From: Candidatus Nanopelagicales bacterium
Lineage (GTDB): Bacteria > Actinomycetota > Actinomycetes > S36-B12 > UBA10799
Assembly: GCA_041393775.1 (NCBI GenBank)
Contig: JAWKJM010000007.1
Span: 3,279 to 67,278, forward strand
DNA: 64,000 nucleotides
Reading direction: 5' to 3'
Both the position numbers and the translations under genes were made by a program. The notes under the pieces are model-generated. The model was not told the origin of the DNA and did not search any database. It saw nothing but the letters and a program-made list of their open reading frames with translations. Positions 6,085-62,280 of this stretch are shown here, in pieces (positions within the stretch are counted from its first letter, which is position 1; each line of letters starts with the position of its first letter).

Positions 6085-6140
6085 GGATCTAGGCTGGGCC
6101 TTCAGCACCACCGGGGCTCCAGCGCCCGTCGGCCCAAATG

Positions 6141-6220
6141 GGCGAGGTTAGAGAACGTGCACGAGGTTAGAGAAGCCACGCGTGCGTTCTCTAACCTCGT
6201 GCACGTTCTCTAACCTCGCC
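6141..6220. repeat. Family A repeat, copy A1: minimal 80-bp near-perfect palindrome
   Basis: The arm GGCGAGGTTAGAGAACGTGCACGAGGTTAGAGAA (34 nt) is followed by the centre GCCACGCGTGCG and then the exact reverse complement of the arm. Confidence 0.95.
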
Positions 6221-6361
6221 GCAATGTCACGTTGGAGTCACCCCGGCGGTTTGGCCAGCGGTGCCCCAACCTCGCTCCCGTGGCTCTAATCAACTGCGGC
6301 CGGCGCGAGAGGTCGAGCCTGTTCCCATGGCGTGCCGCCCCGCGTCGGGGAGAATCGGGAC

Positions 6362-12218: not shown

Positions 12219-12324
12219 GTCGTCTCCTCTCCGACTGCCCCCGGTTGAACAAACTACCACTGATCGGCCGTGAATGCTCGAACGCGTGTTCGAGGGAGGT
12301 TCGGATCGAGATCCGGGTGGCCGT

Positions 12325-12412
12325 GCCTTTGTCACGAAGTAGCGGGGGCCGGAAGGCGTGTCGCACGCACCTTCAGTACAGAACCCCGTGTGAACGGGCA
12401 ACTTCATCACAC
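12325..12412. repeat. Family B repeat, B2 (three arms)
   Basis: Arms CTTTGTCACGAAGTAGCG, CGCACCTTCAGTACA and CAACTTCATCACA. Confidence 0.8.
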
Positions 12413-12586
12413 TGACCAGGAAGCATCATGACTCGTCCGCCCGCACCTTCGGCATTCGGTCGCTTTCGCGCCCGTCCTCGCGTGCCCCGTGCTCCGACGG
12501 CGGGAGATGAAACCCGCGACGACCACAGACACCGTTTCCCGATGATGCGATGGCAGTGAGTCTTCTACCGGTCTGGCCACCGGGTG

Positions 12587-13243: not shown

Positions 13244-13527
13244 TTGTCCAGCCTGGCACAGTCCGGTCGCTCCCGGACGGCCACGGGACGGCGCCTGTCC
13301 CCGGCTTTCACACAGACTTTGGGCGGATTCGGTCACGTACTGACCGGATTTGACCAAAGTCCCCCAAGGGAGACTCGAGGGCGAGCGTTCCACACCCTCC
13401 GGGTCCGCAGTCGCGGTGTCCCGTGGCAGCCATGCTCGGTCAGCACAAATCGAGCCTGCGAAGGACGGCGTGGGTTCGGTAGACTCGAACCGGCGGTGGA
13501 GGGCAAGGAGGTCCGTCCATCAAGGTA

Positions 13528-16693: not shown

Positions 16694-16822
16694 GGCGGTC
16701 TTTGTGACAAAGGTGCGTGCCTGCCCGGAGAGTGTGTCACGAAGTTGCGGGGTGGAGGCACCTGGCGACCCGCACCTTCGTCACAGACCGCCCTGCGCAG
16801 CCTCAACTTCGTCACAGACGCC
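16694..16822. repeat. Family B repeat, B3 (four arms, interleaved complementarity)
   Basis: Arms TTTGTGACAAAGGTGCG, TGTGTCACGAAGTTGCG, CGCACCTTCGTCACA and CAACTTCGTCACA. It lies between the FRD-like flavoprotein gene and fixC. Confidence 0.9.
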
Positions 16823-16935
16823 CCGGGCCGGCCCACTGCCGACGGGTCGCGACCTCCCGGGGCCCGGCCGGTCCCAACCTCAGATCATGAACCCGTCTGG
16901 AAACGGGTAATGCCAAACGGACGGGCGCGCATGCC

Positions 16936-18645: not shown

Positions 18646-18998
18646 GGCAAGAAAGTCTAGGGCGAGAACGGCTCGTGTACTCGGTCGCGGTAGAAGTGGG
18701 CTCTAGTCCGAAAATGGTTGGTGTACTCGGTCGCCGCAGAAGTGGGCCGCGGGGTTAGAGATTGGTCGCGAGGTTAGAGATTGTGCACGAGGTTAGTGAA
18801 TGCACGTGTGGCTTCTCTAACGTCGTGCACGTTCTCTAACGCGAGCGGTTTCGCCAGGCATCTTCCCGCCTGAACCATGGCCCGGGACGACTAACGCGAG
18901 CGGTTTCGCCAGGCATCTTCCCGCCTGAACCATGGCCCGGGACGACTAACGCGAGCGGTTTCCGCTCGGCATCTTCCCGCCTGCACGCCACTGCCGCG
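18646..18998 (-). repeat. Family A repeat, copy A2: 2 T-units + core + 3 S-units
   Basis: T-units lie at 18646-18741. The core with 5 copies of the 13-mer lies at 18743-18830. S-units lie at 18831-18998. Confidence 0.9.
18831..18940. repeat. Perfect 2 x 55-bp tandem duplication (S-units) inside A2
   Basis: GCGAGCGGTTTCGCCAGGCATCTTCCCGCCTGAACCATGGCCCGGGACGACTAAC occurs twice with no mismatch. A diverged third unit follows. Confidence 0.95.
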
Positions 18999-19199
18999 GA
19001 TGACTAATCGGAACCCTGTCCCGAGATCAGCTCATGAGCGCGCCTGGCTGGTGCCACCGCACCCTCCGGGGGTAGGCTGCCACCTACCCGCCGATCATTG
19101 GCCCGGCATTGCTGCCGCCCGCCCGTCGCCAGCACCGGGAAGGCGCCCACTGAGCGTCGGGCAGGCAGAAGTACTCGGGTGCCGCGAGAGAGGCAGCAC

Positions 19200-23507: not shown

Positions 23508-23792
23508 ATGACCCTCCTTGCCGGGTGGCGCTCACGGTAGTCGAGTGATCGAGCGGCATGCGCGTCGTGCGGATGTGGGTGATCTAGGTCTAGGTGACCC
23601 CCCTATCGGCGCACACGATCGTCCGTGACTTCGGCCTCGGAGGGTCAGTGCAGTCGTTGCCGGGTTTGGCGTAGCACTTACCGCGGCAGAGGACCGGGAG
23701 GGCCCATTTCGTCCCAACTGCCCAGTCCAGGCCCGGTCGCGGGGGCTGGTTGTAGTGCTCACCTGAGTTGTTGACGGCGTGGCGGCTTGAAC

Positions 23793-24082
23793 AGGTCGTG
23801 TACTTGGTGGCCGCAGGATTTGGCGGTTCTCTAGTCCGAAAATGGCTCGTGTGCTCGGTCGCCGCAGAAGTTGGCCGCGAGGTTAGAGAATGGTCGCGAG
23901 GTTAGAGATCGTGCACGAGGTTAGTGAACGCACGTGTGGCTTCTCTAACCTCGTGCACGTTCTCTAACCCGAGCGATCTCCGCCCGGCATTTCCCCGCAT
24001 GAACGCCGCGGCCGGCCACGGCCATGGACCACTAACGCCAGCGATCTCCGCCCGGCATTTTTCCGCTTGAACCGGCCGCCCA
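23793..24082 (-). repeat. Family A repeat, copy A3
   Basis: One partial and one full T-unit, a core at 23879-23968, and 1.5 S-units of the 68-bp variant. Confidence 0.9.
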
Positions 24083-24111
24083 GGCAACACCATCGTGGCT
24101 GCCGAGAACAC

Positions 24112-26636: not shown

Positions 26637-26764
26637 GGCGGTCTTTGTGACGAAGGTGCGTGGATGTCCCGGGCTTCGTGACGAAGTCGCGGGGTCTGAA
26701 GGCCGTGGAGCCCCCAACTTCGTAACAGACCGCCCTGTGGACCCTCAACGTCGTCACAAACGCC
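26637..26764. repeat. Family B repeat, B4
   Basis: Arms TTTGTGACGAAGGTGCG, TTCGTGACGAAGTCGCG, CAACTTCGTAACA and CAACGTCGTCACA. Flanked by GGCGGTC/GACCGCC. Confidence 0.9.
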
Positions 26765-27286
26765 GCGTACAGCACCGATGAGTCGTCGTCCGACCAGCGG
26801 GGTCCATACCGCAGCTGAGGCCCAGCATGTGACGGTTGTCGAAGATCCGTACTCGCAGGACGGACCTGCGAGTCCGAAAGGCGAGTACTCGAACTCGACT
26901 TCGAAGCGGTGGTCCTTGACGGTGGCGGAGAAGTCACGAATCCCGGACCCGAATGGAAGGTCCTGGACCGTGAAGCCTGCCGCCGGACTGCGTGTCGACC
27001 GTGATCCGTGGCCTTTCCGGCGAGTACGCCCCCAAGACAATCCCCGGATCGTGGAGCTGGACCAAACCAACGATGCGATCGCGACGAGCGTCCCGGTCAG
27101 CGCCGCAGCGACAACGCCGTTTGACAATTCGTGGGCAATCGCGTGACCGGGCCCAAGACAGCACTAGCCCTGTTCTCAGGCTGAACGACACAGTTGTCGA
27201 CACTGTCTCCCGGACCAGCGACACCCGCGGAACGAACTCCTTCAGGGTCCGCCTGTGGTCGGGAGAAGGCCGGGTCACACGATGGG

Positions 27287-28160: not shown

Positions 28161-28841
28161 TCAGCGGTGGGCCAGTAGTTGCTCTGCTAGATGGCGGGCG
28201 GTGTCGGGATCGCGGTCCGCGATCGCGCGGGCCAGTGTCTGGTGGGCGTCGCGATCCGCGAATTCTTCGAGCAGACCTGCGAGATGCTCGTGGCCGATGG
28301 CGAAGATCCCGGCACTCAGGGTGTTGAGCCCGAGCCGGTAGCCCAGGTTGTCGGCACCATCGACCACGGCGGTCCAGAAGACCAGGTCGACGGCCGTGAG
28401 TTCGGGGACGGGGGACTGCTGCGCCGGGTAGGCCTCCGCGGCGGCTAGCACCTTGGCCACCTGGTCGGGCTTGGCCCGGATCGCGCAAAGGCGAGCAGCG
28501 TCCGCACCCACCGACGCCCTCATTTCCAGCAGGTCGTCGAGCACTTTGGTCGACGGCACCGCCCCGCTGGTCGCAAGCGCCACGAGGGCATCCAGCCCGG
28601 CGTGTTGATGCCAGTCGAGAACCCGCGTGCGCCCGCCCTGCGAGATCGACACCAGGCCCGTCTGCTGGAGCCTTTTGAGCGCCTCCCGGACCGCGTGCCG
28701 ATTGACTGCGAACGCCTCGGCCAGTTCACGCTCCGAAGGCAGGGCCTGCTCAGCAGCGAGCCGGCCACTGAGAATTTCGTCGGTGAGAGCGGCGAACACG
28801 GCCTCACTGACCGCGGCCCGGGCGATCGGCGTGAACGGCAT
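28161..28841 (-). CDS. GntR family transcriptional regulator (FadR/FCD subfamily)
   Basis: The N-terminal wHTH reads LPSERELAEAFAVNRHAVREALKRLQQTGLVSISQGGRTRV. The C-terminal domain is all-helical. Its stop lies 28 nt upstream of the desaturase start. Confidence 0.85.
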   Translation of the reverse strand: MPFTPIARAAVSEAVFAALTDEILSGRLAAEQALPSERELAEAFAVNRHAVREALKRLQQTGLVSISQGGRTRVLDWHQHAGLDALVALATSGAVPSTKVLDDLLEMRASVGADAARLCAIRAKPDQVAKVLAAAEAYPAQQSPVPELTAVDLVFWTAVVDGADNLGYRLGLNTLSAGIFAIGHEHLAGLLEEFADRDAHQTLARAIADRDPDTARHLAEQLLAHR

Positions 28842-28906
28842 GTGAAGAACCTAGGAGGCTTCACGGCACTTGTCAACTTGTTGGACCAGTAGTGCCACCG
28901 CGTCTT

Positions 28907-28960
28907 CGACTTTGGTCGGATGTGGTCACCCAATGACCGGATGTGACCAAGGTCCCCGTG
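28907..28960. promoter_or_regulatory. Four-half-site GGTCA/TGACC palindrome, copy 1 (candidate GntR operator)
   Basis: CGACTTTGGTCGGATGTGGTCACCCAATGACCGGATGTGACCAAGGTCCCCGTG. The half-sites are phased at exactly 10 bp. It lies in the divergent gap between the GntR gene and the beta-lactamase-family operon. Confidence 0.55.
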
Positions 28961-29174: not shown

Positions 29175-30623
29175 ATGGCGGTCGAGCTGGATCTGGGGCA
29201 CGTCGTCGACGAGATCCGGCATCACCATCCCTGTGTGGCAATGGCCATCGGGGTGGTGACTCCCGAGGGTTCGCAAGTGGCGGTGAGTGGTCCTGCAGAC
29301 ATCGGGAGCCGTGAAGCGGCAACTGCGCAGACCGCATTCCGCGTGGCTTCGATCACCAAGACCTTCACCGCGGTCGGGCTGATCCAGCTCTGGGAGCAAG
29401 GGCTGGTGGACCTCGATGCTCCGGCGGAGAACTACCTGCAAACCATCCGCCTGGGCGGGAAGATGTCGAACCCGGTGACCGTTCGGCAACTGTTGACCCA
29501 TACGTCGGGCCTGCCCGAGACCCTTTCGGTCCGCGGCCTCGTGCGGCCCGATTTCGGGGAGAGCTGCGCGCCCACCGAGGCGGCGCCGACTCTGGCTGAG
29601 TTCTACGGGCGACGCCTGGACACGGTGACCGACCCTGGGACCACGTTCTGCTACACGAATCACGGACCGGCCCTGATAGGGCAGATCCTCGAAGACGTCA
29701 CCGGGCAGGCGCTGGAGGACTACCTGGTCGCCCACGTGTTCGCGCCGTGGGGCATGACCGGCAGCGACCTTTCCCAATCCCGCAGGCCACGGGCAGGCAG
29801 AGCCACGGGGTACCGGCTGACCTCTCGGGGGCCCAAAGCTGTGGCCGTGCGTGACATGGTCACGGCCGGTGCGGCGGCGGCGTGGTCCACCCCCGCCGAC
29901 ATGGTCCACTATCTGGAGGCTCTGCTCGGCGGAGGGCGGAATGAGCACGGCGCGGCCCTCCACCCGGACACGCTCGACTTCATGTTCGCCCCGCACTACC
30001 AACCCGATCCCCGGATCCCCGGCATGGGACTCGGCTTCATGCGGGGCGAGGTCGATGGCCACAAGGTGGTGGAACATCAAGGGATCATTCCTGGTTTCGA
30101 CTCCCATCTGATCCTGGCCCCAGATGACGGAGCCGGTGTCTTCGCCGTGACGACCGGGGCACGGCTCGCGATGTTCTGGCTACAGGCTGAGACCTCCCGG
30201 TTGTTGCGCCGCCTGATCGGGGCTGGCCCGGACATCGTCCCCACCGATGTTCCCCAACGCCCAGACGTGTGGCCGGAGCTCTGCGGGCGCTATTGGGTGC
30301 CAGGCACATTTCGCGACCTCCGGTTGCGCTCCATCGTGGGTGCAGGCGTGCAGGTCCGCGTTCGCGGCGGGCGCCTCGTGCTCGGTACCCTCAACCCCGT
30401 CCCCACGTTGTTCAAGGGCGTCGAACTGCTTCCCGGCAGCACCGAAGATCCGTACTGCTTGCGATTCGATCTCACGGGCTTGGGGTTGGGGACCGGTGGA
30501 GTGGTCTTCGATCCCGACTCCAGTTCGGGTGACACCGCGATGCACCTGGAGTTGATGCCACTGACCGCGTACCGGCGGTCCCGGCGTGAGCTGCGGAAGC
30601 GGTGGCCGGGGGGTGCCAGGTGA
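29175..30623 (+). CDS. serine hydrolase, beta-lactamase (class C/esterase) family
   Basis: S-x-x-K motif (FRVASITKTF) and Y-x-N motif (YTNHG) are present. Start moved to ATG 29175 (MAVELDLGHVV). Confidence 0.8.
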   Translation: MAVELDLGHVVDEIRHHHPCVAMAIGVVTPEGSQVAVSGPADIGSREAATAQTAFRVASITKTFTAVGLIQLWEQGLVDLDAPAENYLQTIRLGGKMSNPVTVRQLLTHTSGLPETLSVRGLVRPDFGESCAPTEAAPTLAEFYGRRLDTVTDPGTTFCYTNHGPALIGQILEDVTGQALEDYLVAHVFAPWGMTGSDLSQSRRPRAGRATGYRLTSRGPKAVAVRDMVTAGAAAAWSTPADMVHYLEALLGGGRNEHGAALHPDTLDFMFAPHYQPDPRIPGMGLGFMRGEVDGHKVVEHQGIIPGFDSHLILAPDDGAGVFAVTTGARLAMFWLQAETSRLLRRLIGAGPDIVPTDVPQRPDVWPELCGRYWVPGTFRDLRLRSIVGAGVQVRVRGGRLVLGTLNPVPTLFKGVELLPGSTEDPYCLRFDLTGLGLGTGGVVFDPDSSSGDTAMHLELMPLTAYRRSRRELRKRWPGGAR

Positions 30624-30928
30624 ACGATTCCAGTGGCCGTTGTCTGGGGTTGGGGGTGTTGTGCGGAGAGTCGATATTCACCTCGGCATCCGATCGCGCC
30701 GGGGTGTCAGCGATCGCGGTGACGGTGCTAGGCGCCGGAGCCGAGAGGTCGCGGTCGCTGTGGCGCCGCCTGGGTCCACCGGCCGGGCCCCTGACCGGGA
30801 ACTGCGGTCTCATTCGCCAACCACATGGCGTCGATCGCGCGGTCAACCTGTCGCATGGGCAGGTTGACCCACTGGTGAGGATGAGGAACTCGGCCGGGGT
30901 CGCCTATGAGGGTGGGGCATCGGCGTGA
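30620..30928 (+). CDS. hypothetical protein (weak call)
   Basis: The ORF is bounded by GTGA overlaps at both ends (30620-30623 and 30925-28), consistent with translational coupling. Third-position GC is only moderate, rare codons are present, and there is no family signal. Confidence 0.3.
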   Translation: MNDSSGRCLGLGVLCGESIFTSASDRAGVSAIAVTVLGAGAERSRSLWRRLGPPAGPLTGNCGLIRQPHGVDRAVNLSHGQVDPLVRMRNSAGVAYEGGASA

Positions 30929-31434
30929 AGACCCTTCGGCAGTTGCTGCCTGCCGCCACCGGGGTGGCCATCGTTGCCGGTCTGACGCTCTTCCTGCTCG
31001 ATCGTGGCTCGGCCCTGGGGCCGTGGCTGCTCGCGGTGCTGCTGTTCGCGCACGGGTGGGTGCATTTGATGTTCTTCTTCCCGGCTCCCGACCCGTCGCG
31101 ACGGGAGCCCGGGTCCCCGCGCTACCCCTTCGTGATGGCCGACTCCTGGCTCATCGGCCGAGCCGGTCTCGAGGAAGCGCGTGTGCGTGTTGCGGGCTTC
31201 ATGTTCGTTGGCGTTACCTTCGCAGGGTTCGTGCTGGCGGCGCTCGCCACGGTGGGCTGGCTGGTGCCCGCCGGGTGGTGGGGCACCTTGGTCCTGGGAG
31301 CGTCGGTCCTGTCGACCTGCACGCTGCTGATGTTCGTCTCGCCACTGCTGCTGCTCGGGTTCGGGATCAACGCGGCTCTGGCATGGCTGGTCCTGTCCTC
31401 GGCGTGGGCGCCCGGGGGAGGTGGCGGCGCATGA
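30925..31434 (+). CDS. small integral membrane protein, unknown function
   Basis: 169 aa with about 4 TM helices. The GTG start overlaps the upstream stop. Its own stop overlaps the next ATG (ATGA). Confidence 0.6.
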   Translation: MKTLRQLLPAATGVAIVAGLTLFLLDRGSALGPWLLAVLLFAHGWVHLMFFFPAPDPSRREPGSPRYPFVMADSWLIGRAGLEEARVRVAGFMFVGVTFAGFVLAALATVGWLVPAGWWGTLVLGASVLSTCTLLMFVSPLLLLGFGINAALAWLVLSSAWAPGGGGGA

Positions 31435-31665
31435 CTCCGACTGGCAGCAGCATCGCCGTGCTGGCGACCAGGCGCGGACCCCCCGACGTTCTCGAGGTGC
31501 GGTCGCGGGGGGTGCCGCGACCGGCCCTTGGGACGTCGTAGTGCGGGTTCTGACGTGCACCGTCGTTCTCCCTGATGTGCAGGCCAGGTACGGCAAGACG
31601 CGATTCCCGCCCAAAGTGCCGTTCGTGCCCGGCTACTCCGTGGTCGGTGACGTGACGGACGTTAG
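31431..31665 (+). pseudogene. 5' remnant of an MDR (quinone oxidoreductase/ADH-like) gene, frameshifted and truncated
   Basis: It opens MTPTGSSIAVLATRRGPPDVLEVRSRG. After a run of six G (31509-31514) the homologous sequence continues in another frame (GPWDVVVRVLTCTVVLPDVQARYGKTRFPPKVPFVPGYSVVGDVTDV). It then stops being MDR-like exactly where repeat A4 begins (GTTAGTC at 31661). Confidence 0.6.
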
Positions 31666-32003
31666 TCATCCAAGGCCGCGGCCGTTCGGCGGGAAGATGC
31701 CGGCCCGGGATCGCTCGCGTTGGTCATCCATGGCCGTGGCCGGCCCCCTTTCAGGCGGGGAAATGCCGGGCGAAATCGCTCGGGTTAGAGAACGTGCACG
31801 AGGTTAGAGAAGCCACACGTGCGTTCACTAACCTGGTGCACATTCTCTAACCTCGCGGCCAACTCCTGCCGCTACCGAGTACACCAGCCATTTTCGGACC
31901 AGAGAGGGTGCACGAGGTTGGAGAAGTCACACGTGCGTTATCTAACCTCGCGGCCCACTTCTGCGGCGACCGAGCGCACGAGTCGATTTCGGACTGGCTC
32001 GGC
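31661..32003 (+). repeat. Family A repeat, copy A4: 2 S-units + core + T-unit + second partial core + T-unit
   Basis: It starts with GTTAGTCATCC directly at the truncation point of the MDR remnant. Six 13-mer copies are present. Confidence 0.9.
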
Positions 32004-32362
32004 GGCGTAGGGACCCGGGCTAGGCCTTGACCATGGTCGGAGGATACGCGGAACATGTGCGGGTGCCGGCACGCCGACTGGTCCCAGTACCGTCCAAGGT
32101 TGATCCTGCCTAGGCGGTCCTCACGACGATCGTCCCGACCGTTCGGACGACTCACGTGTGACAAGCCGTGGGCCCCCGGCTGGAGCGGCCGCCTTGTTCG
32201 GTGTGAACTGGCCGACGAAGGCGCTGGCCTTCCGAACTCACGCTTTGCTCGGGTGGTCCCGGCGGTACTAGGGTGAAGGGAGCCGTTGACTGGAGACACC
32301 GTGTCACCGAACGAGCAGAACACGCCGGAGGCGCCGGCGAGGCGTCGCGCTCGAGTGGTCCG

Positions 32363-33331
32363 ATGAAGGCGATCGTTCACCACCGCTACGGGCCCCCGCG
32401 AGAGGTGCTCGGGCTCGAAGACGTGGCGGTCCCCGCGGTCGGGGAGCACGACGTGCTCGTGCGTGTGCGGGCCGCAGCGGTCAACTGGGCGGACTGGGCA
32501 CTCACGCTGGGTCTGCCGTACATGTTGCGCCTGCCATACGGCCTGCGCGCGCCACGCGAGGGCATCCGGGGCACCGATGTGGCTGGCACGGTGGAGCAGG
32601 TCGGTGCGGCCGTGTCCGACCTTCGCCCCGGCGACGATGTCTTCGGCTGGTGCACCGGCGCCTTCGCGCAGTACGCCGTGACCGCTGCCGACCACCTCGT
32701 GACCAAGCCCTCGACGCTGGCCTTCGGGGCCGCCGCAGGCGTGCCTATGGCAGGGATGGTGGCGCTTCAAGCGATGCGCGACATCGCGGACGTGCAGCCC
32801 GGCACGCGGGTGCTTGTCAACGGCGCATCGGGCGGCATCGGCACGTTCACGGTTCAGATCGCCAAGGCCATGGGCGCCGACGTGACCGGAGTGTCCCGCA
32901 CCGACCACCTGGGTTTGGTCAGGTCTATAGGCGCCGACCACGTGATCGACTACAAGCGGGCAGACTTCACCGAGTCCGGCGAACGCTACGACGTCATCCT
33001 CGACATAGCGGACAACAAGACCCTGTCCGCCCGCCGTCGGGCACTCACGGAGCACGGCACCCTGATCCCGAACAACGGCACCGGAAACCGTTGGACCGCC
33101 AGTCTCGGCCGCATCCTCAAGGCGCGGGCTGTCTCCCCGTTCGTGAGCCAGACCCTGCGGCCGTTCCTGTCCTTGCCCAAGCGCACCGACCTGATGGTTC
33201 TCAGAGAACTGATCGAGGCAGGCGACGTCACACCGGTCTTGGACCGGACCTATCCGTTGGCTGAGACCGCGGACGCCGTGGACTACGTCGGAGGGGGTCA
33301 CACGTGCGGCAAGGTCACCATCGCGGTCTAG
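32363..33331 (+). CDS. NADPH:quinone oxidoreductase-like MDR family protein
   Basis: It begins MKAIVHHRYGPPREVLGLEDVAVPAVGEHDVLVRVRAAAVN and contains VLVNGASGGIGTFTVQIAK. Start moved to ATG 32363. Confidence 0.85.
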   Translation: MKAIVHHRYGPPREVLGLEDVAVPAVGEHDVLVRVRAAAVNWADWALTLGLPYMLRLPYGLRAPREGIRGTDVAGTVEQVGAAVSDLRPGDDVFGWCTGAFAQYAVTAADHLVTKPSTLAFGAAAGVPMAGMVALQAMRDIADVQPGTRVLVNGASGGIGTFTVQIAKAMGADVTGVSRTDHLGLVRSIGADHVIDYKRADFTESGERYDVILDIADNKTLSARRRALTEHGTLIPNNGTGNRWTASLGRILKARAVSPFVSQTLRPFLSLPKRTDLMVLRELIEAGDVTPVLDRTYPLAETADAVDYVGGGHTCGKVTIAV

Positions 33332-34689: not shown

Positions 34690-34703
34690 CCCGGGGTTCA
34701 CAG

Positions 34704-34757
34704 CGACTTTGGTCAGATCTGGTCACCCACTGACCATATGTGACCAAAGTCCCCGTC
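34704..34757. promoter_or_regulatory. Four-half-site GGTCA/TGACC palindrome, copy 2
   Basis: CGACTTTGGTCAGATCTGGTCACCCACTGACCATATGTGACCAAAGTCCCCGTC. It is about 88% identical to copy 1 and lies 54 bp upstream of the metallopeptidase start. Confidence 0.55.
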
Positions 34758-39817: not shown

Positions 39818-39945
39818 GGCGGCCTTTGTGACGATGTTGCGGCGCTGTCGGGCCGGGTTGTAACGAAGGTGCGCGCTCAGACCGACCTGCGGGGCCATCT
39901 TCGTAGCAAACCGCCTGGTGGGCTCGCAACTTCGTCACAAGAAGG
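39818..39945. repeat. Family B repeat, B5
   Basis: Arms TTTGTGACGATGTTGCG, TTGTAACGAAGGTGCG, CCATCTTCGTAGCA and CGCAACTTCGTCACA. Confidence 0.9.
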
Positions 39946-43194: not shown

Positions 43195-43249
43195 ACGGTG
43201 TGGACCCGGGGTCGGGCGAGGTAGCGGCCACTTGTTCGTGCACCGGGCC

Positions 43250-43385
43250 GCCACGATTGTGACGAAGCTGGCGGCCGCGCCCGTGTCGTGTTACGAAGGT
43301 GCGGGGTCTGGCCGGTCGCGACCGCGCACCTTCGCAACAATCCAGGGTTGGGCCCCGCAGCTTCGTCACACAAGGTGCGCGCGGG
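43250..43385. repeat. Family B repeat, B6 (nested complementarity)
   Basis: Arms ATTGTGACGAAGCTG, TGTTACGAAGGTGCG, CGCACCTTCGCAACA and CAGCTTCGTCACA. Confidence 0.9.
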
Positions 43386-44340: not shown

Positions 44341-44575
44341 GGTTCGTGTGCTGCGGAGTTGGCTGTTCTCTAGTCCGAAGATGGCTGGTGCACTCGGTCG
44401 CCGCAGAAGTGGGCCGCGAGGTTAGAGAATGGTCGCGAGGTTAGAGAACGTGCACGAGGTTAGTGAACGCACGTGTGGCTTCTCTAACCTCGTGCACGTT
44501 CTCTAACGCGAGCGATTTCCGCCCGGCATTTTCCCGCCTGAACGGGTGGCCGGCCACGGCCCGGGACGGCCACCT
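44341..44575 (-). repeat. Family A repeat, copy A5
   Basis: Partial and full T-units, a core at 44417-44508, and one S-unit. Confidence 0.9.
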
Positions 44576-46444: not shown

Positions 46445-46686
46445 GCATCCGCGTCCGGGGCCGATCGCGGCGTTCAGGAGGGAGAATGCCGGGCGGAAAC
46501 CGCTCGGGTTAGAGATCGTGCACGAGGTTAGAGAAGCCACACGTGCGTTCTCTAACCTCGTGCACGATCTCTAACCTCGCGACCATTCTCTAACCTCGCA
46601 GCCCACTTCTGCGGCGACCGAGTACACGAGCCATGATCTCTAACCTCGCGGCCAACTCCCGTGGCCACCGAGGACACGAGCCATCG
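46445..46686 (+). repeat. Family A repeat, copy A6
   Basis: One S-unit and a core. Four TCTCTAACCTCG copies lie on the right side, followed by two T-like units. Confidence 0.9.
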
Positions 46687-46716
46687 ACGGTCTGGGCCCG
46701 CAGGTCGGCGCCGGGA

Positions 46717-48301: not shown

Positions 48302-48438
48302 GGGCGGCGTCCGGTGTCTTTGTCACGAAGGTGCGCCGTCCAGATGGTGGTTTGTGACGAAGGTGCTGGGTCCACCGGGCGTTGCGCCCGCACCTTCGAT
48401 ACAAAAGGCCCGGCGCCGCCCGCACCTTCGTAACACAG
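48302..48438. repeat. Family B repeat, B7
   Basis: Arms TTTGTCACGAAGGTGCG, TTTGTGACGAAGGTGC, CGCACCTTCGATACA and CGCACCTTCGTAACA. Confidence 0.9.
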
Positions 48439-55052: not shown

Positions 55053-55065
55053 GCCCCCCGCGCGG

Positions 55066-55140
55066 CCACGATTGTGACGACGTCGGCGCCCGTCCTGGCG
55101 CTGTGCTACGGGTTTGGCCCCCGCGACTCTGTCACACGAG
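55066..55140. repeat. Family B repeat, B8 (shortened/degenerate)
   Basis: Arms ATTGTGACGACGTCG, TGTGCTACGGGTTTG and CGACTCTGTCACA. It shares its left flank GCCACGATTGTGACGA with B6. Confidence 0.75.
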
Positions 55141-56604: not shown

Positions 56605-56762
56605 GGCGAACACCTCCATTGTCGACGCTGCCCCTCGGGGGAGAGGCTTGTCAACCCGGGCGGTCCACGGGGGCCGAAGCGGCCCACGGTGCGTCAGGTT
56701 GCGCCTGTTCGTGTGCCCCGGGTAGACGTCCGCACCGGGTTCGGTCGAACCCCCGGCGAAGG

Positions 56763-56882
56763 TCAGTGTGACGAAGTTGATGGCCGTCCGATCGTCGTGT
56801 TACGAAGGTGCGCGGTCTGAGCCGGTGCGACCGCGCACCTTCGTAACAATCCGGGCTGGCGCCCCGCAACTTCTTCACAGAG
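56763..56882. repeat. Family B repeat, B9 (nested complementarity)
   Basis: Arms GTGTGACGAAGTTG, TGTTACGAAGGTGCG, CGCACCTTCGTAACA and CAACTTCTTCACA. Confidence 0.9.
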
Positions 56883-56910
56883 GGTCGGACGGGACATCAG
56901 TGCGGAATCC

Positions 56911-59980: not shown

Positions 59981-60102
59981 TCTCACGACTCCTCGATTGG
60001 TCCAGAGGTTGATGGTTTCACGGGTCGGCTGTCCGCGCCACGGTCGCCCGGCGTTGATGTCCGAACGACTGGGGTCCGTCCCCTCGAGCCGCACGAAGCC
60101 CG

Positions 60103-60217
60103 GTGTGACGACGTTGTGGGGGTCCGGACCGGACTGTTACGAAGGTGCGGGGTCGCGCCGGCTCGGACCACCCACCTTCGTAACGCGACGGAGTAGTGGC
60201 AAGCACCTTCGTCACAA
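60103..60217. repeat. Family B repeat, B10
   Basis: Arms GTGTGACGACGTTG, TGTTACGAAGGTGCG, CCACCTTCGTAACG and GCACCTTCGTCACA. Confidence 0.9.
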
Positions 60218-60308
60218 TCGTGTCCACCGTCGGCTTCAACGGGTGGTCGTCAGCCCTGTGGATTGACACGAACAAGGGCTCGGCGGAAACCGGTTCCCCA
60301 GCGGCCGG

Positions 60309-62020: not shown

Positions 62021-62263
62021 GTCAGACATCCGCGGCGTTCAGGGCGGGCGGCTCAGGCGCGGAAGTGCCGGGCGGAGATCGCTCGCGTTAGTCCTCCTGG
62101 GCCGTGGCCTGCCGCCCGTTCAGGCGGGGAAATGCCGGGCGGAAATCGCTCGGGTTAGAGAACGTGCACGAGGTTAGAGAAGCCACACGTGCGTTCACTA
62201 ACCTCGTGCACGATCTCTAACCTCGCCGCCAACCCCTGCGGCTACCGAGTCTTCGGACTAGAC
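62021..62263 (+). repeat. Family A repeat, copy A7
   Basis: Two S-units, a core at 62154-62224, and a shortened T-unit ending CGGACTAGAC. Confidence 0.9.
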
Positions 62264-62280
62264 CCCCGGGGTACCCGGGG
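62264..62280. terminator. Short GC hairpin between convergent PRTase and cytochrome b genes
   Basis: CCCCGGG, then gta, then CCCGGGG. It lies immediately after repeat A7. Confidence 0.3.

What the first reader, a model, noticed from the sequence alone, without database searches (positions are those of the whole stretch)
31431..32003. Operon tail is cut off exactly at the edge of a family A element
The genes at 29175-30623, 30620-30928, 30925-31434 and 31431- are chained by 4-nt start/stop overlaps. The last one encodes only the first ~78 residues of an MDR oxidoreductase, ending ...PFVPGYSVVGDVTDV.

The homologous reading then ends at GAC|GTTAGTCATCC, which is the first base of the S-unit of copy A4. 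The missing ~250 codons are nowhere downstream. The next gene (32363-33331) is a complete but different MDR paralogue.

This is direct evidence that family A elements are associated with insertion or deletion events. Possible mechanisms are insertion followed by deletion, or recombination between two copies.

The remnant also changes frame after a run of six G (31509-31514). That may be slippage or a sequencing indel.
Basis: partly seen in the sequence, partly recalled or inferred. Interest (0 to 1): 0.6.

Follow-up and report, generated by a model that had tools for sequence, protein, structure and literature searches.

The report
Repeat element inserted in dead gene
A small, multi-copy, hairpin-forming repeat sits inside an already broken oxidoreductase gene at the end of an operon; pieces of the gene survive on both sides of it, so this is an ordinary repeat-in-pseudogene case and not a gene cut off at the repeat's edge.

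Summary
The operon chain (29175-31434, three 4-nt overlaps) and the MDR-like N-terminus starting at 31431 are real.

- **Gene continues past the repeat.** 26 nt beyond the right end of family A copy A4 (31661-31997), the same reading frame resumes with ALTMVGGYAEHVRVPARRLVPVPSKVDPA*AVLTT... (32024-32155). This matches residues 89-134 of full-length homologues.
- **A4 is an insertion.** At most about 16 nt of the gene were lost at the site.
- **The remnant has other lesions:**
  - a 1-nt frameshift, best placed at GGG 31530-31532 rather than the G6 run
  - two in-frame TAGs
  - small indels
  - loss of the C-terminal ~207 codons, whose left edge lies ~160 nt downstream of A4 in unique sequence
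- **Not an artefact.** Unitigs from six sequencing runs reproduce both junctions and the G runs.
- **Family A is lineage-restricted and modular.** It reads S(n)-core-T(n), occurs at 7 loci in 64 kb, and the other six copies lie between predicted genes. The source is a Candidatus Nanopelagicales MAG. The closest analogues are BOX, BIME and MITE repeats. No transposase or clear target duplication was found.

Verdict: observation partly confirmed, interpretation partly supported, low-to-moderate interest.

The parts
29175..30623 (+). First gene of the operon: a beta-lactamase/transpeptidase-family protein (482 aa).
   Evidence: Pfam PF00144, E 2.1e-53. Its stop overlaps the next start (GTGA at 30620-30623).
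30620..30928 (+). Small ORF (102 aa) with no Pfam family.
   Evidence: Called as a gene in the Logan unitigs. Relatives keep a small gene overlapping the membrane-protein gene by 4 nt.
30925..31434 (+). Conserved membrane protein (169 aa) with no Pfam family.
   Evidence: 192 homologues, best named-genome relative 63% identical. Its stop overlaps the MDR start (ATGA at 31431-31434).
31431..31532 (+). MDR pseudogene segment 1, in the frame of 31431: MTPTGSSIAVLATRRGPPDVLEVRSRGVPRPALG.
   Evidence: tblastn to P0003, P0010, P0012, P0015 and P0016, residues ~5-30. This frame runs into TAG at 31539-31541.
31530..31532 (+). Most likely frameshift site: GGG that was probably GGGG (loss of 1 nt).
   Evidence: Segment 1 HSPs end at 31523-31538 and segment 2 HSPs start at 31526-31541. 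The reading PALG|DVVVRV keeps the register of homologues. The sequence is identical in 3 independent unitigs.
31532..31660 (+). MDR pseudogene segment 2, in the frame of 31433: DVVVRVLTCTVVLPDVQARYGKTRFPPKVPFVPGYSVVGDVTD(V).
   Evidence: Pfam ADH_N profile positions 2-47. tblastn to homologue residues 29-74, 52-59% identity.
31661..31997 (+). Family A copy A4 (337 nt). Modules: S1 31661-31718, S2 31719-31783, core hairpin 31784-31852, T1 31853-31907, half-core 31908-31947, T2 31948-31997.
   Evidence: Module coordinates. Alignment with the six other copies. Core pairwise identity is 91-100%. As single-stranded DNA it folds to -83.3 kcal/mol, z = -5.0. Stops in all frames. CGGAC is present at 31656-31660 and at 31990-31994.
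31998..32023 (+). 26 nt of non-element, gene-derived sequence ending in an in-frame TAG (32021-32023). Homologues have 14 codons (42 nt) here.
   Evidence: This implies roughly 16 nt lost, or about 9 nt if GTT and GGACTGG at the junctions belong to the gene.
32024..32155 (+). MDR pseudogene segment 3, same frame as segment 2: ALTMVGGYAEHVRVPARRLVPVPSKVDPA*AVLTTIVPTVRTTH. It contains an in-frame TAG at 32111-32113.
   Evidence: tblastn to P0016 residues 89-134, P0012 (62.5% over 32 aa, E 1.5e-6) and P0018 (E 7.6e-7). PDB 4eye and 6iqd align it as the end of the GroES-like domain. It raises the Pfam score from 22 to 33.4 bits.
32156..32362 (+). Spacer with no MDR homology and no repeat match. 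It holds the junction of the deletion that removed ~207 C-terminal codons (the whole Rossmann domain).
   Evidence: No tblastn hit to homologue residues 135-341 anywhere in the window except the intact paralogues. Unique within the window. No promoter- or terminator-like site.
32363..33331 (+). Intact MDR paralogue (322 aa), NAD(P)-dependent alcohol dehydrogenase.
   Evidence: Pfam ADH_N + ADH_zinc_N/_2. MEZ5186198.1. Only 27-29% identical to full-length homologues of the pseudogene's subfamily (P0016, P0018), and its only significant match to the remnant is a 42-aa N-terminal stretch at 40% identity.
6120..6243 (+). Family A copy A1 (core only, perfect palindrome), between two divergent predicted genes.
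18656..19007 (-). Family A copy A2 (three S units, two of them 100% identical tandem 55-mers; core; two T units), between predicted genes.
23779..24093 (-). Family A copy A3, between predicted genes; starts within ~20 nt of a stop codon.
44355..44566 (-). Family A copy A5.
46448..46692 (+). Family A copy A6, between two predicted genes on the minus strand.
62042..62270 (+). Family A copy A7.

Best explanation
The stretch 31431-32155 is the wreck of a quinone-oxidoreductase-like MDR gene. It was once the fourth, translationally coupled gene of a beta-lactamase-like / small ORF / membrane-protein operon.

A 337-nt copy of a lineage-specific, non-coding, modular hairpin repeat (family A: S-S-core-T-half-core-T) lies inserted between codon ~76 and codon ~80-89 of that gene. 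At most about 16 nt of the gene were lost at the site.

The gene carries several further, independent lesions:
- a 1-nt deletion frameshift near 31530-31532
- two in-frame TAG codons
- small indels
- a deletion of the whole C-terminal NAD(P)-binding domain (~207 codons), whose left end lies ~160 nt to the right of the repeat in unique DNA

Shown: gene remnants on both sides of the repeat, collinear and in the same frame; the repeat's multi-copy, modular nature; both junctions in independent assemblies.

Inferred: the repeat arrived by insertion, either by transposition in trans or by capture during break repair. Whether the insertion killed the gene or landed in an already dead gene cannot be decided.
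For: - Three collinear tblastn segments match full-length homologues: residues 6-30, 29-74 and 89-134 of P0016, with similar results for P0012, P0015 and P0018.
- Segments 2 and 3 are in the same frame.
- Pfam ADH_N rises from 22.0 to 33.4 bits when segment 3 is added.
- PDB 4eye aligns both pieces with a 13-residue gap.
- Family A is present at 7 loci. Its core motif gives 8 matches against 0.01 expected by chance. All 28 GTTAGAGA 8-mers in the window lie in family A, at 19-nt spacing.
- The element's boundaries are defined by alignment of all copies.
- An independent copy with the same S-S-core-T-half-core-T layout occurs in another assembly, L136.
- Seven unitigs from six SRA runs (99.3-99.96% identical) reproduce the left junction (three unitigs, L007-L009), the right junction (four unitigs, L001-L004) and the G runs.
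- Homologue residues 135-341 are absent from the window. The sequence 32100-32362 is unique.
- Published precedent exists: modular BOX repeats insert into genes and pseudogenes (PMC3049150).
Against: - No empty (pre-insertion) allele was found. No relative has an MDR gene after the membrane-protein gene. No orthologue of the pseudogene closer than ~50-60% identity exists in the databases searched.
- No unitig spans the whole element, so its internal module order rests on the MAG assembly alone.
- No unambiguous target-site duplication. The CGGAC at the right junction is part of the T-unit consensus.
- No transposase was found next to any copy.
- The same frame on both sides would occur by chance one time in three.
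Confidence: 0.85

Rival explanations
1. The gene is truncated exactly at the left edge of the family A copy because insertion followed by deletion, or recombination between two family A copies, removed everything downstream.
For: Homology to MDR proteins does stop at 31660-31663, the first bases of the S-unit. About 207 codons are indeed missing from the window.
Against: 44 codons of the same gene follow the element in the same frame. The large deletion begins around 32156, ~160 nt past the element, in sequence with no repeat match. Recombination between two copies would have removed segment 3.
Confidence: 0.04
2. Break-repair capture, not transposition. The family A sequence was copied or ligated into a double-strand break in the (pseudo)gene by microhomology-mediated or non-homologous end joining, using another copy as donor.
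For: - A small loss of gene sequence at the site (about 9-16 nt) instead of a clean duplication.
- 5-nt identity (CGGAC) between the left flank and the element's right terminus.
- No transposase near any copy.
- Variable, tandemly duplicated modules suggest recombinational turnover. Two 55-nt S units in A2 are 100% identical.
Against: Seven loci in 64 kb with 91-100% identical cores and consistent termini are more typical of an actively spreading element. The missing nucleotides could have been lost later, since the gene is decaying anyway.
Confidence: 0.15
3. Assembly or sequencing artefact. The MAG contig is mis-joined at a repeat, and the frameshift is a homopolymer error.
For: The source is a metagenome-assembled genome. 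Short-read unitigs all break inside the repeat.
Against: Both flanks belong to one gene, in order and in frame. The left junction is present in 3 unitigs and the right junction in 4, from six runs in all, with SNP-level divergence from the window. The G runs are identical in all three unitigs that cover them.
Confidence: 0.03

Closest known systems
BOX elements of Streptococcus pneumoniae / S. suis (boxA-boxB(n)-boxC composite repeats)
   Same: Both are small, non-coding, multi-copy and strongly folding. Both are modular, with variable numbers of tandem internal or flanking units (family A here spans 124-352 nt; BOX spans 67-637 bp). Both lie mostly between genes, and both are known to sit inside disrupted genes and pseudogenes (PMC3049150).
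   Different: No sequence similarity. Family A is in a high-GC actinobacterial host. It has a 69-nt near-palindromic core built from a GGTTAGAGA motif repeated at 19-nt spacing in inverted arrays, with variable units on both sides of the core.
REP/BIME mosaic elements of enterobacteria
   Same: Palindromic units combined with other short motifs into mosaic clusters between genes, at high copy number (own knowledge; review PMC3184786 listed).
   Different: REPs are ~35-nt imperfect palindromes linked to RAYT transposases. No RAYT was looked for or found here. The family A core is twice as long and its orientation-specific mismatches are conserved between copies.
MITEs (e.g. Correia/NEMIS, ERIC, RUP)
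   Same: Short, non-autonomous, with inverted-repeat arms and strong secondary structure, multi-copy, able to land in genes (PMC10969869, PMC3049150).
   Different: The inverted repeat is internal (the core), not terminal. The S and T ends are not inverted copies of each other. The target-site duplication is ambiguous. No parent IS was identified.
Rickettsia palindromic elements (RPE)
   Same: Palindromic repeats found inside protein-coding genes (mentioned in PMC3049150).
   Different: RPEs insert in frame and the host gene stays functional. Here the element has stop codons in every frame and the gene is dead.

Membership tests
MDR superfamily gene (medium-chain dehydrogenase/reductase, QOR-like) | N-terminal GroES-like domain (Pfam ADH_N) above the gathering score. 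| tested here: met
   The N-piece alone scores 22.0 bits, below 23.5. The N-piece plus the piece at 32024-32113 scores 33.4 bits, E 5.5e-8. 33 PDB MDR chains match.
MDR superfamily gene (medium-chain dehydrogenase/reductase, QOR-like) | C-terminal Rossmann NAD(P)-binding domain (ADH_zinc_N, GxGxxG). | tested here: not met
   No tblastn match to homologue residues 135-341 apart from the intact paralogues. No such motif in six-frame translations of 32100-32365. The domain has been deleted.
MDR superfamily gene (medium-chain dehydrogenase/reductase, QOR-like) | Uninterrupted reading frame (a functional gene). | tested here: not met
   Frameshift near 31530, a 337-nt insertion, and TAG codons at 31539, 32021 and 32111. 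It is a pseudogene.
MITE | Terminal inverted repeats. | tested here: not met
   The long inverted repeat is the internal core. The S-side and T-side termini share at most the pentamer TAGTC in inverted orientation.
MITE | Target-site duplication flanking the element. | tested here: inconclusive
   CGGAC occurs at both A4 junctions, but the right copy is part of the T-unit consensus. No consistent duplication was seen at A2.
MITE | Short, non-coding, multi-copy. | tested here: met
   124-352 nt, stops in all frames, 7 loci in 64 kb.
MITE | A related autonomous element or transposase in the same genome. | not testable with these tools
   Only 64 kb of the genome is available. None of the ten neighbouring ORFs tested beside five of the other six copies (A1, A2, A3, A5, A6) is a transposase; the ORF tested nearest A7 is not immediately adjacent to it.
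BOX/BIME-type composite repeats located between genes | Built from distinct modules, with variable copy number of some modules. | tested here: met
   The copies carry 0-3 S units, 0-2 T units, an optional 19-nt extra motif and a half-core.
BOX/BIME-type composite repeats located between genes | Predominantly located between genes. | tested here: met
   Six of seven copies lie between GC3-supported ORFs. The seventh (A4) lies in a pseudogene.
BOX/BIME-type composite repeats located between genes | Sequence homology to BOX or REP consensus. | not tested
   No direct comparison with BOX or REP consensus sequences was made. Indirect checks found nothing: no Rfam family and no plasmid match. The similarity is in architecture only.

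The most novel reading that the evidence does not exclude
Family A, together with the look-alike elements seen in other high-GC metagenome contigs (L098; the L036 group), may represent an undescribed class of actinobacterial mobile repeats. Their core would be an array of 4-5 protein-binding sites (GGTTAGAGA at a strict 19-nt period, two direct plus two or three inverted). That layout resembles two multi-site transposon ends fused back to back. Such elements would be mobilised in trans by an unidentified enzyme and would be active enough to invade coding sequence.
Probability: 0.2. Interest if true: 0.5.

Novelty: new member of a known kind. Interest (0 to 1): 0.25.

Why it matters
It corrects the reading of this locus. 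The repeat did not amputate the operon tail. It is an insertion inside a gene that is decaying by several independent lesions.

It also provides one filled site with both gene flanks preserved. This is the only positional evidence in the window that family A DNA can enter a new site.

For annotators of this Candidatus Nanopelagicales MAG, it flags an MDR pseudogene: only two protein accessions fall between the GntR regulator and the MDR paralogue. It also flags a dense, lineage-specific repeat family, about one copy per 9 kb, which breaks every short-read unitig examined here that reaches this copy.

Beyond that, the phenomenon is well known from BOX, Correia, ERIC and RPE elements.

Tried and rejected
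- **Word-indexed protein search with the reconstructed remnant at E<=1e-5:** no hits.
- **Handing the reconstructed protein to the exhaustive search:** The raw frame translation was used instead.
- **Genome-collection scan with the beta-lactamase-like protein:** only two Isoptericola loci at 59-60% identity. The one examined (L006) lacks the downstream operon genes and any MDR gene, so no orthologous intact MDR locus was obtained.
- **Contexts of five membrane-protein homologues:** a conserved small-ORF + membrane-protein pair in three of the five, but never an MDR gene downstream.
- **Exact family A core in JGI metagenomes:** 0 hits.
- **Degenerate 19-nt-period pattern in JGI metagenomes:** 120 stretches, mostly chance matches. 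About 28 of them are one orthologous promoter region of a soil bacterium, unrelated to family A.
- **Family A against plasmids (blastn):** no match.
- **Rfam at gathering and E-value thresholds:** nothing but hairpin noise.
- **Promoter/terminator scan of 31300-32450:** nothing.
- **Search for C-terminal MDR remnants or repeats in 32100-32362:** none.
- **Remnant as a decayed tandem duplicate of the neighbouring paralogue:** considered and rejected. The two share only 40% identity over 42 aa, and the remnant belongs to a different MDR subfamily.
- **In-frame, RPE-like coding insertion:** considered and rejected, because the element has stops in all frames.

Full report
**Source and setting**

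The window comes from a 238,199-bp contig of an NCBI metagenome-assembled genome labelled Candidatus Nanopelagicales bacterium (proteins MEZ5186183-MEZ5186212). Its G+C content is 66.5%.

NCBI numbers the GntR regulator at 28161-28841 as MEZ5186195 and the MDR paralogue at 32363 as MEZ5186198. Only two proteins are therefore annotated between them.

**Checking the observation**

The three 4-nt start/stop overlaps are exactly as described: GTGA at 30620-30623, GTGA at 30925-30928 and ATGA at 31431-31434.

- The first gene is a beta-lactamase-family protein (PF00144, E 2e-53).
- The second and third genes have no Pfam family.
- The third is a conserved membrane protein with 192 database homologues.

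From 31431 the frame reads MTPTGSSIAVLATRRGPPDVLEVRSRGVPRPALGTS*. The frame of 31433 then reads ...GPWDVVVRVLTCTVVLPDVQARYGKTRFPPKVPFVPGYSVVGDVTDV and runs into the repeat.

This stretch is MDR-like on three lines of evidence:
- Pfam ADH_N scores 22.0 bits (E 1.9e-4) on this piece alone, just below the 23.5-bit cut-off.
- An exhaustive HMMER search of 1.84 billion representatives returned MDR proteins with 52-63% identity over ~41 residues.
- tblastn of those proteins back onto the window gives E-values of 1e-11 to 5e-17.

**The point that changes the reading**

The frame of 31433 also contains ALTMVGGYAEHVRVPARRLVPVPSKVDPA*AVLTTIVPTVRTTH at 32024-32155, downstream of the repeat. This is the next part of the same GroES-like domain.

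- It matches residues 89-134 of the full-length homologue P0016. It also matches P0012 (62.5% identity over 32 aa, E 1.5e-6), P0018 (E 7.6e-7) and P0015.
- Adding it lifts the Pfam ADH_N score to 33.4 bits (E 5.5e-8), above the cut-off.
- The solved structure 4eye aligns both pieces in one alignment with a 13-residue gap. 6iqd aligns them as two consecutive stretches.

The three segments are collinear with the homologues: residues 6-30, 29-74 and 89-134. The statement that the missing codons are nowhere downstream is therefore wrong for about 44 of them. Only homologue residues 135-341, the whole NAD(P)-binding domain, are absent from the window.

**Anatomy of the inserted element**

Copy A4 occupies 31661-31997 (337 nt). 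Its modules are:

| Module | Coordinates |
|---|---|
| S1 | 31661-31718 |
| S2 | 31719-31783 |
| Core (69 nt, near-palindromic) | 31784-31852 |
| T1 | 31853-31907 |
| Half-core | 31908-31947 |
| T2 | 31948-31997 |

The left boundary (GTTAGTCATCC) coincides with the start of copy A2 and with internal S-S junctions. The right boundary (...TTTCGGACTGG) matches the T-unit end seen in A2, A3, A5, A6 and A7, and in an independent copy.

Between the element and ALT lie 26 nt (31998-32023, ending in TAG). Homologues have 14 codons (42 nt) there. The gene therefore lost about 16 nt at the site, or about 9 nt if the junctional GTT and GGACTGG are counted as gene sequence.

CGGAC occurs at both junctions, at 31656-31660 and 31990-31994. 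The right copy belongs to the element consensus, so this is microhomology or coincidence rather than a demonstrable target-site duplication.

**Other lesions in the gene**

- **Frameshift.** Segment 1 alignments end at 31523-31538 and segment 2 alignments start at 31526-31541. Reading ...RPALG then DVVVRV keeps the homologues' P-x-x-G-E-V-R-V register. Shifting at the six-G run instead gives GGAATGPW, which does not fit. The simplest event is loss of one G from GGGG at 31530-31532.
- **Stop codons.** In-frame TAGs lie at 32021-32023 and 32111-32113.
- **Small gap.** A two-codon gap follows the second TAG.
- **3' deletion.** The remnant fades out at about 32155. The next 207 nt are unique in the window. 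They contain no MDR-like translation and no promoter- or terminator-like site. The large 3' deletion is thus ~160 nt away from the element and is not linked to any repeat.

**Is it an artefact?**

Seven Logan unitigs from six SRA runs are 99.3-99.96% identical to the window, with their own SNPs.
- Three (L007-L009) cover the left junction and the G runs.
- Four (L001-L004) cover the right junction.
- All agree with the window.

Two of them read GTTGGTCATCC rather than GTTAGTCATCC at the element's start. All unitigs stop inside the repeat, so the internal module order of A4 rests on the MAG assembly. However, an unrelated ENA contig (L136) carries a family A copy with the same S-S-core-T-half-core-T order.

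**What family A is**

The window holds seven loci:

| Copy | Coordinates | Strand |
|---|---|---|
| A1 | 6120-6243 | + |
| A2 | 18656-19007 | - |
| A3 | 23779-24093 | - |
| A4 | 31661-31997 | + |
| A5 | 44355-44566 | - |
| A6 | 46448-46692 | + |
| A7 | 62042-62270 | + |

- A 21-nt core probe finds 8 matches against 0.01 expected by chance.
- Cores are 91-100% identical pairwise, mean 95%.
- All 28 occurrences of GTTAGAGA in the window lie in family A, at a strict 19-nt period: two on one arm and two or three inverted on the other. The motif is absent from 96 kb of related or other high-GC loci, apart from the family-A-like core in L098.
- A4 folds as single-stranded DNA to -83.3 kcal/mol (z = -5.0).
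- Copies differ in the number of S units (0-3) and T units (0-2). A2 carries two 100% identical tandem S units.
- The other six copies lie between GC3-supported ORFs, in either orientation relative to their neighbours. The ten neighbouring ORFs tested encode ordinary proteins or have no Pfam family. None is a transposase.
- No Rfam family matches. There is no plasmid match. The exact core gives no hit in JGI metagenomes.
- A profile of conceptual translations across the core found a single protein in 5.8 billion.

The family is real, dense (about one copy per 9 kb) and narrowly distributed.

**Mechanism**

Shown: a family A copy is present as extra DNA inside a once-continuous coding sequence. 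The loss at the site is small, and the junctions are fixed across slightly diverged populations.

Inferred: it arrived by insertion. Two routes are compatible with the data:
- Mobilisation in trans by an unidentified transposase. The high copy number, near-identical cores and consistent termini favour this.
- Capture of a copy during double-strand-break repair. The small deletion, the 5-nt microhomology, the absence of a clean duplication and signs of recombinational turnover of modules favour this.

Whether the insertion inactivated the gene or landed in an already dead gene cannot be decided, because the lesions cannot be ordered in time.

Relatives do not help. The membrane-protein gene is paired with a small upstream ORF in three of the five related loci examined (L010, L133, L135), but none of the five has an MDR gene after it. 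The MDR gene was therefore a lineage-specific addition to the operon. No orthologue closer than ~50-60% identity was found.

**Comparison with known systems**

The best analogues are the modular BOX elements of streptococci. These have the form boxA-boxB(n)-boxC, span 67-637 bp, and are documented inside a disrupted DNA-repair gene and inside an acetyltransferase pseudogene (PMC3049150). The mosaic REP/BIME clusters of enterobacteria and MITEs in general are also comparable (PMC3184786, PMC10969869).

Family A shares with these its size, non-coding nature, strong folding, modularity and preference for sites between genes.

It fails the strict MITE definition because its inverted repeat is internal, not terminal, and its duplication test is inconclusive. 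It has no detectable sequence relationship to any curated family.

It is not RPE-like, because the insertion carries stops in all frames.

**Verdict**

This is a new member of a known kind: a small composite repeat inserted in a decaying gene. It is useful for annotation and as a lead for a repeat-family census, but not surprising.

Noticed in passing
window 12323-12420, 16694-16825, 26637-26767, 39818-39939, 43225-43379, 48314-48434, 55058-55110, 56752-56888, 60099-60249: A second interspersed repeat family, unrelated to family A. It is built on the inverted motif TGTGACGAAGGTG / CACCTTCGTCACA and is as dense as family A (families D4, D6, D7, D11-D13, D20).
   Followed up: no
window 13300-13364, 28893-28957, 34690-34754: A third, ~65-nt palindromic repeat (GACTTTGGTC.GAT.TGGTCAC...GTGACCAAAGTC), 69-80% identical between copies. 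One copy lies in the divergent region between the GntR regulator gene and the beta-lactamase-like operon, so it could be an operator or another small repeat (family D10).
   Followed up: no
L036 3343, L038 4465, L055 931, L056 5140, L125 815 (also L108, L128): High-GC metagenome contigs carry a different repeat with the same design as the family A core. It has three CCGGTTAGAGA motifs at 19-nt period, a short centre, then inverted CTCTAACC motifs. In at least L036 and L038/L108 it is followed by a decayed IS481-like transposase 3' remnant (..ILTDNG.. in L036 only..PTNGxVERFxRxLIH in both).
   Followed up: partly
L098 5549-5640: A family-A-like core (GTTAGAGAACGTTCACGTCGTTAGAGAAAACACGCGTGCAGTCTCTAAC...) lies about 60 nt after a gene's stop codon in an unrelated high-GC metagenome contig. 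This suggests the core architecture exists outside this lineage.
   Followed up: partly
L013-L131 subset (28 contigs, e.g. L015, L042, L074, L093): The pattern GTTAGAGA-N11-GTTAGAGAA also marks a conserved, syntenic promoter region upstream of a small gene (MGEIIRFVPKSERERARLIREA...) in soil bacteria of ~57% GC. It is an orthologous locus, not a repeat, and probably a two-site operator.
   Followed up: partly
window 18836-18945: Two perfectly identical tandem 55-nt S units in copy A2, pointing to very recent tandem duplication of a module (family D14).
   Followed up: no
window 30620-31434; L010 5345-6510, L133 3624-4513, L135 2171-2898: A small ORF and a ~170-aa membrane protein, neither with a Pfam family, form a conserved pair with a 4-nt overlap in three related actinobacterial-type metagenome contigs. 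The membrane protein also has a Chloroflexi-labelled homologue (P0052), whose context was not examined. This is an uncharacterised two-gene module.
   Followed up: partly
window 31637 and 31664: Population SNPs in two of the independent unitigs: T>G inside the pseudogene and A>G in the first S-unit (GTTAGTC to GTTGGTC). The insertion is therefore older than this strain-level divergence.
   Followed up: yes
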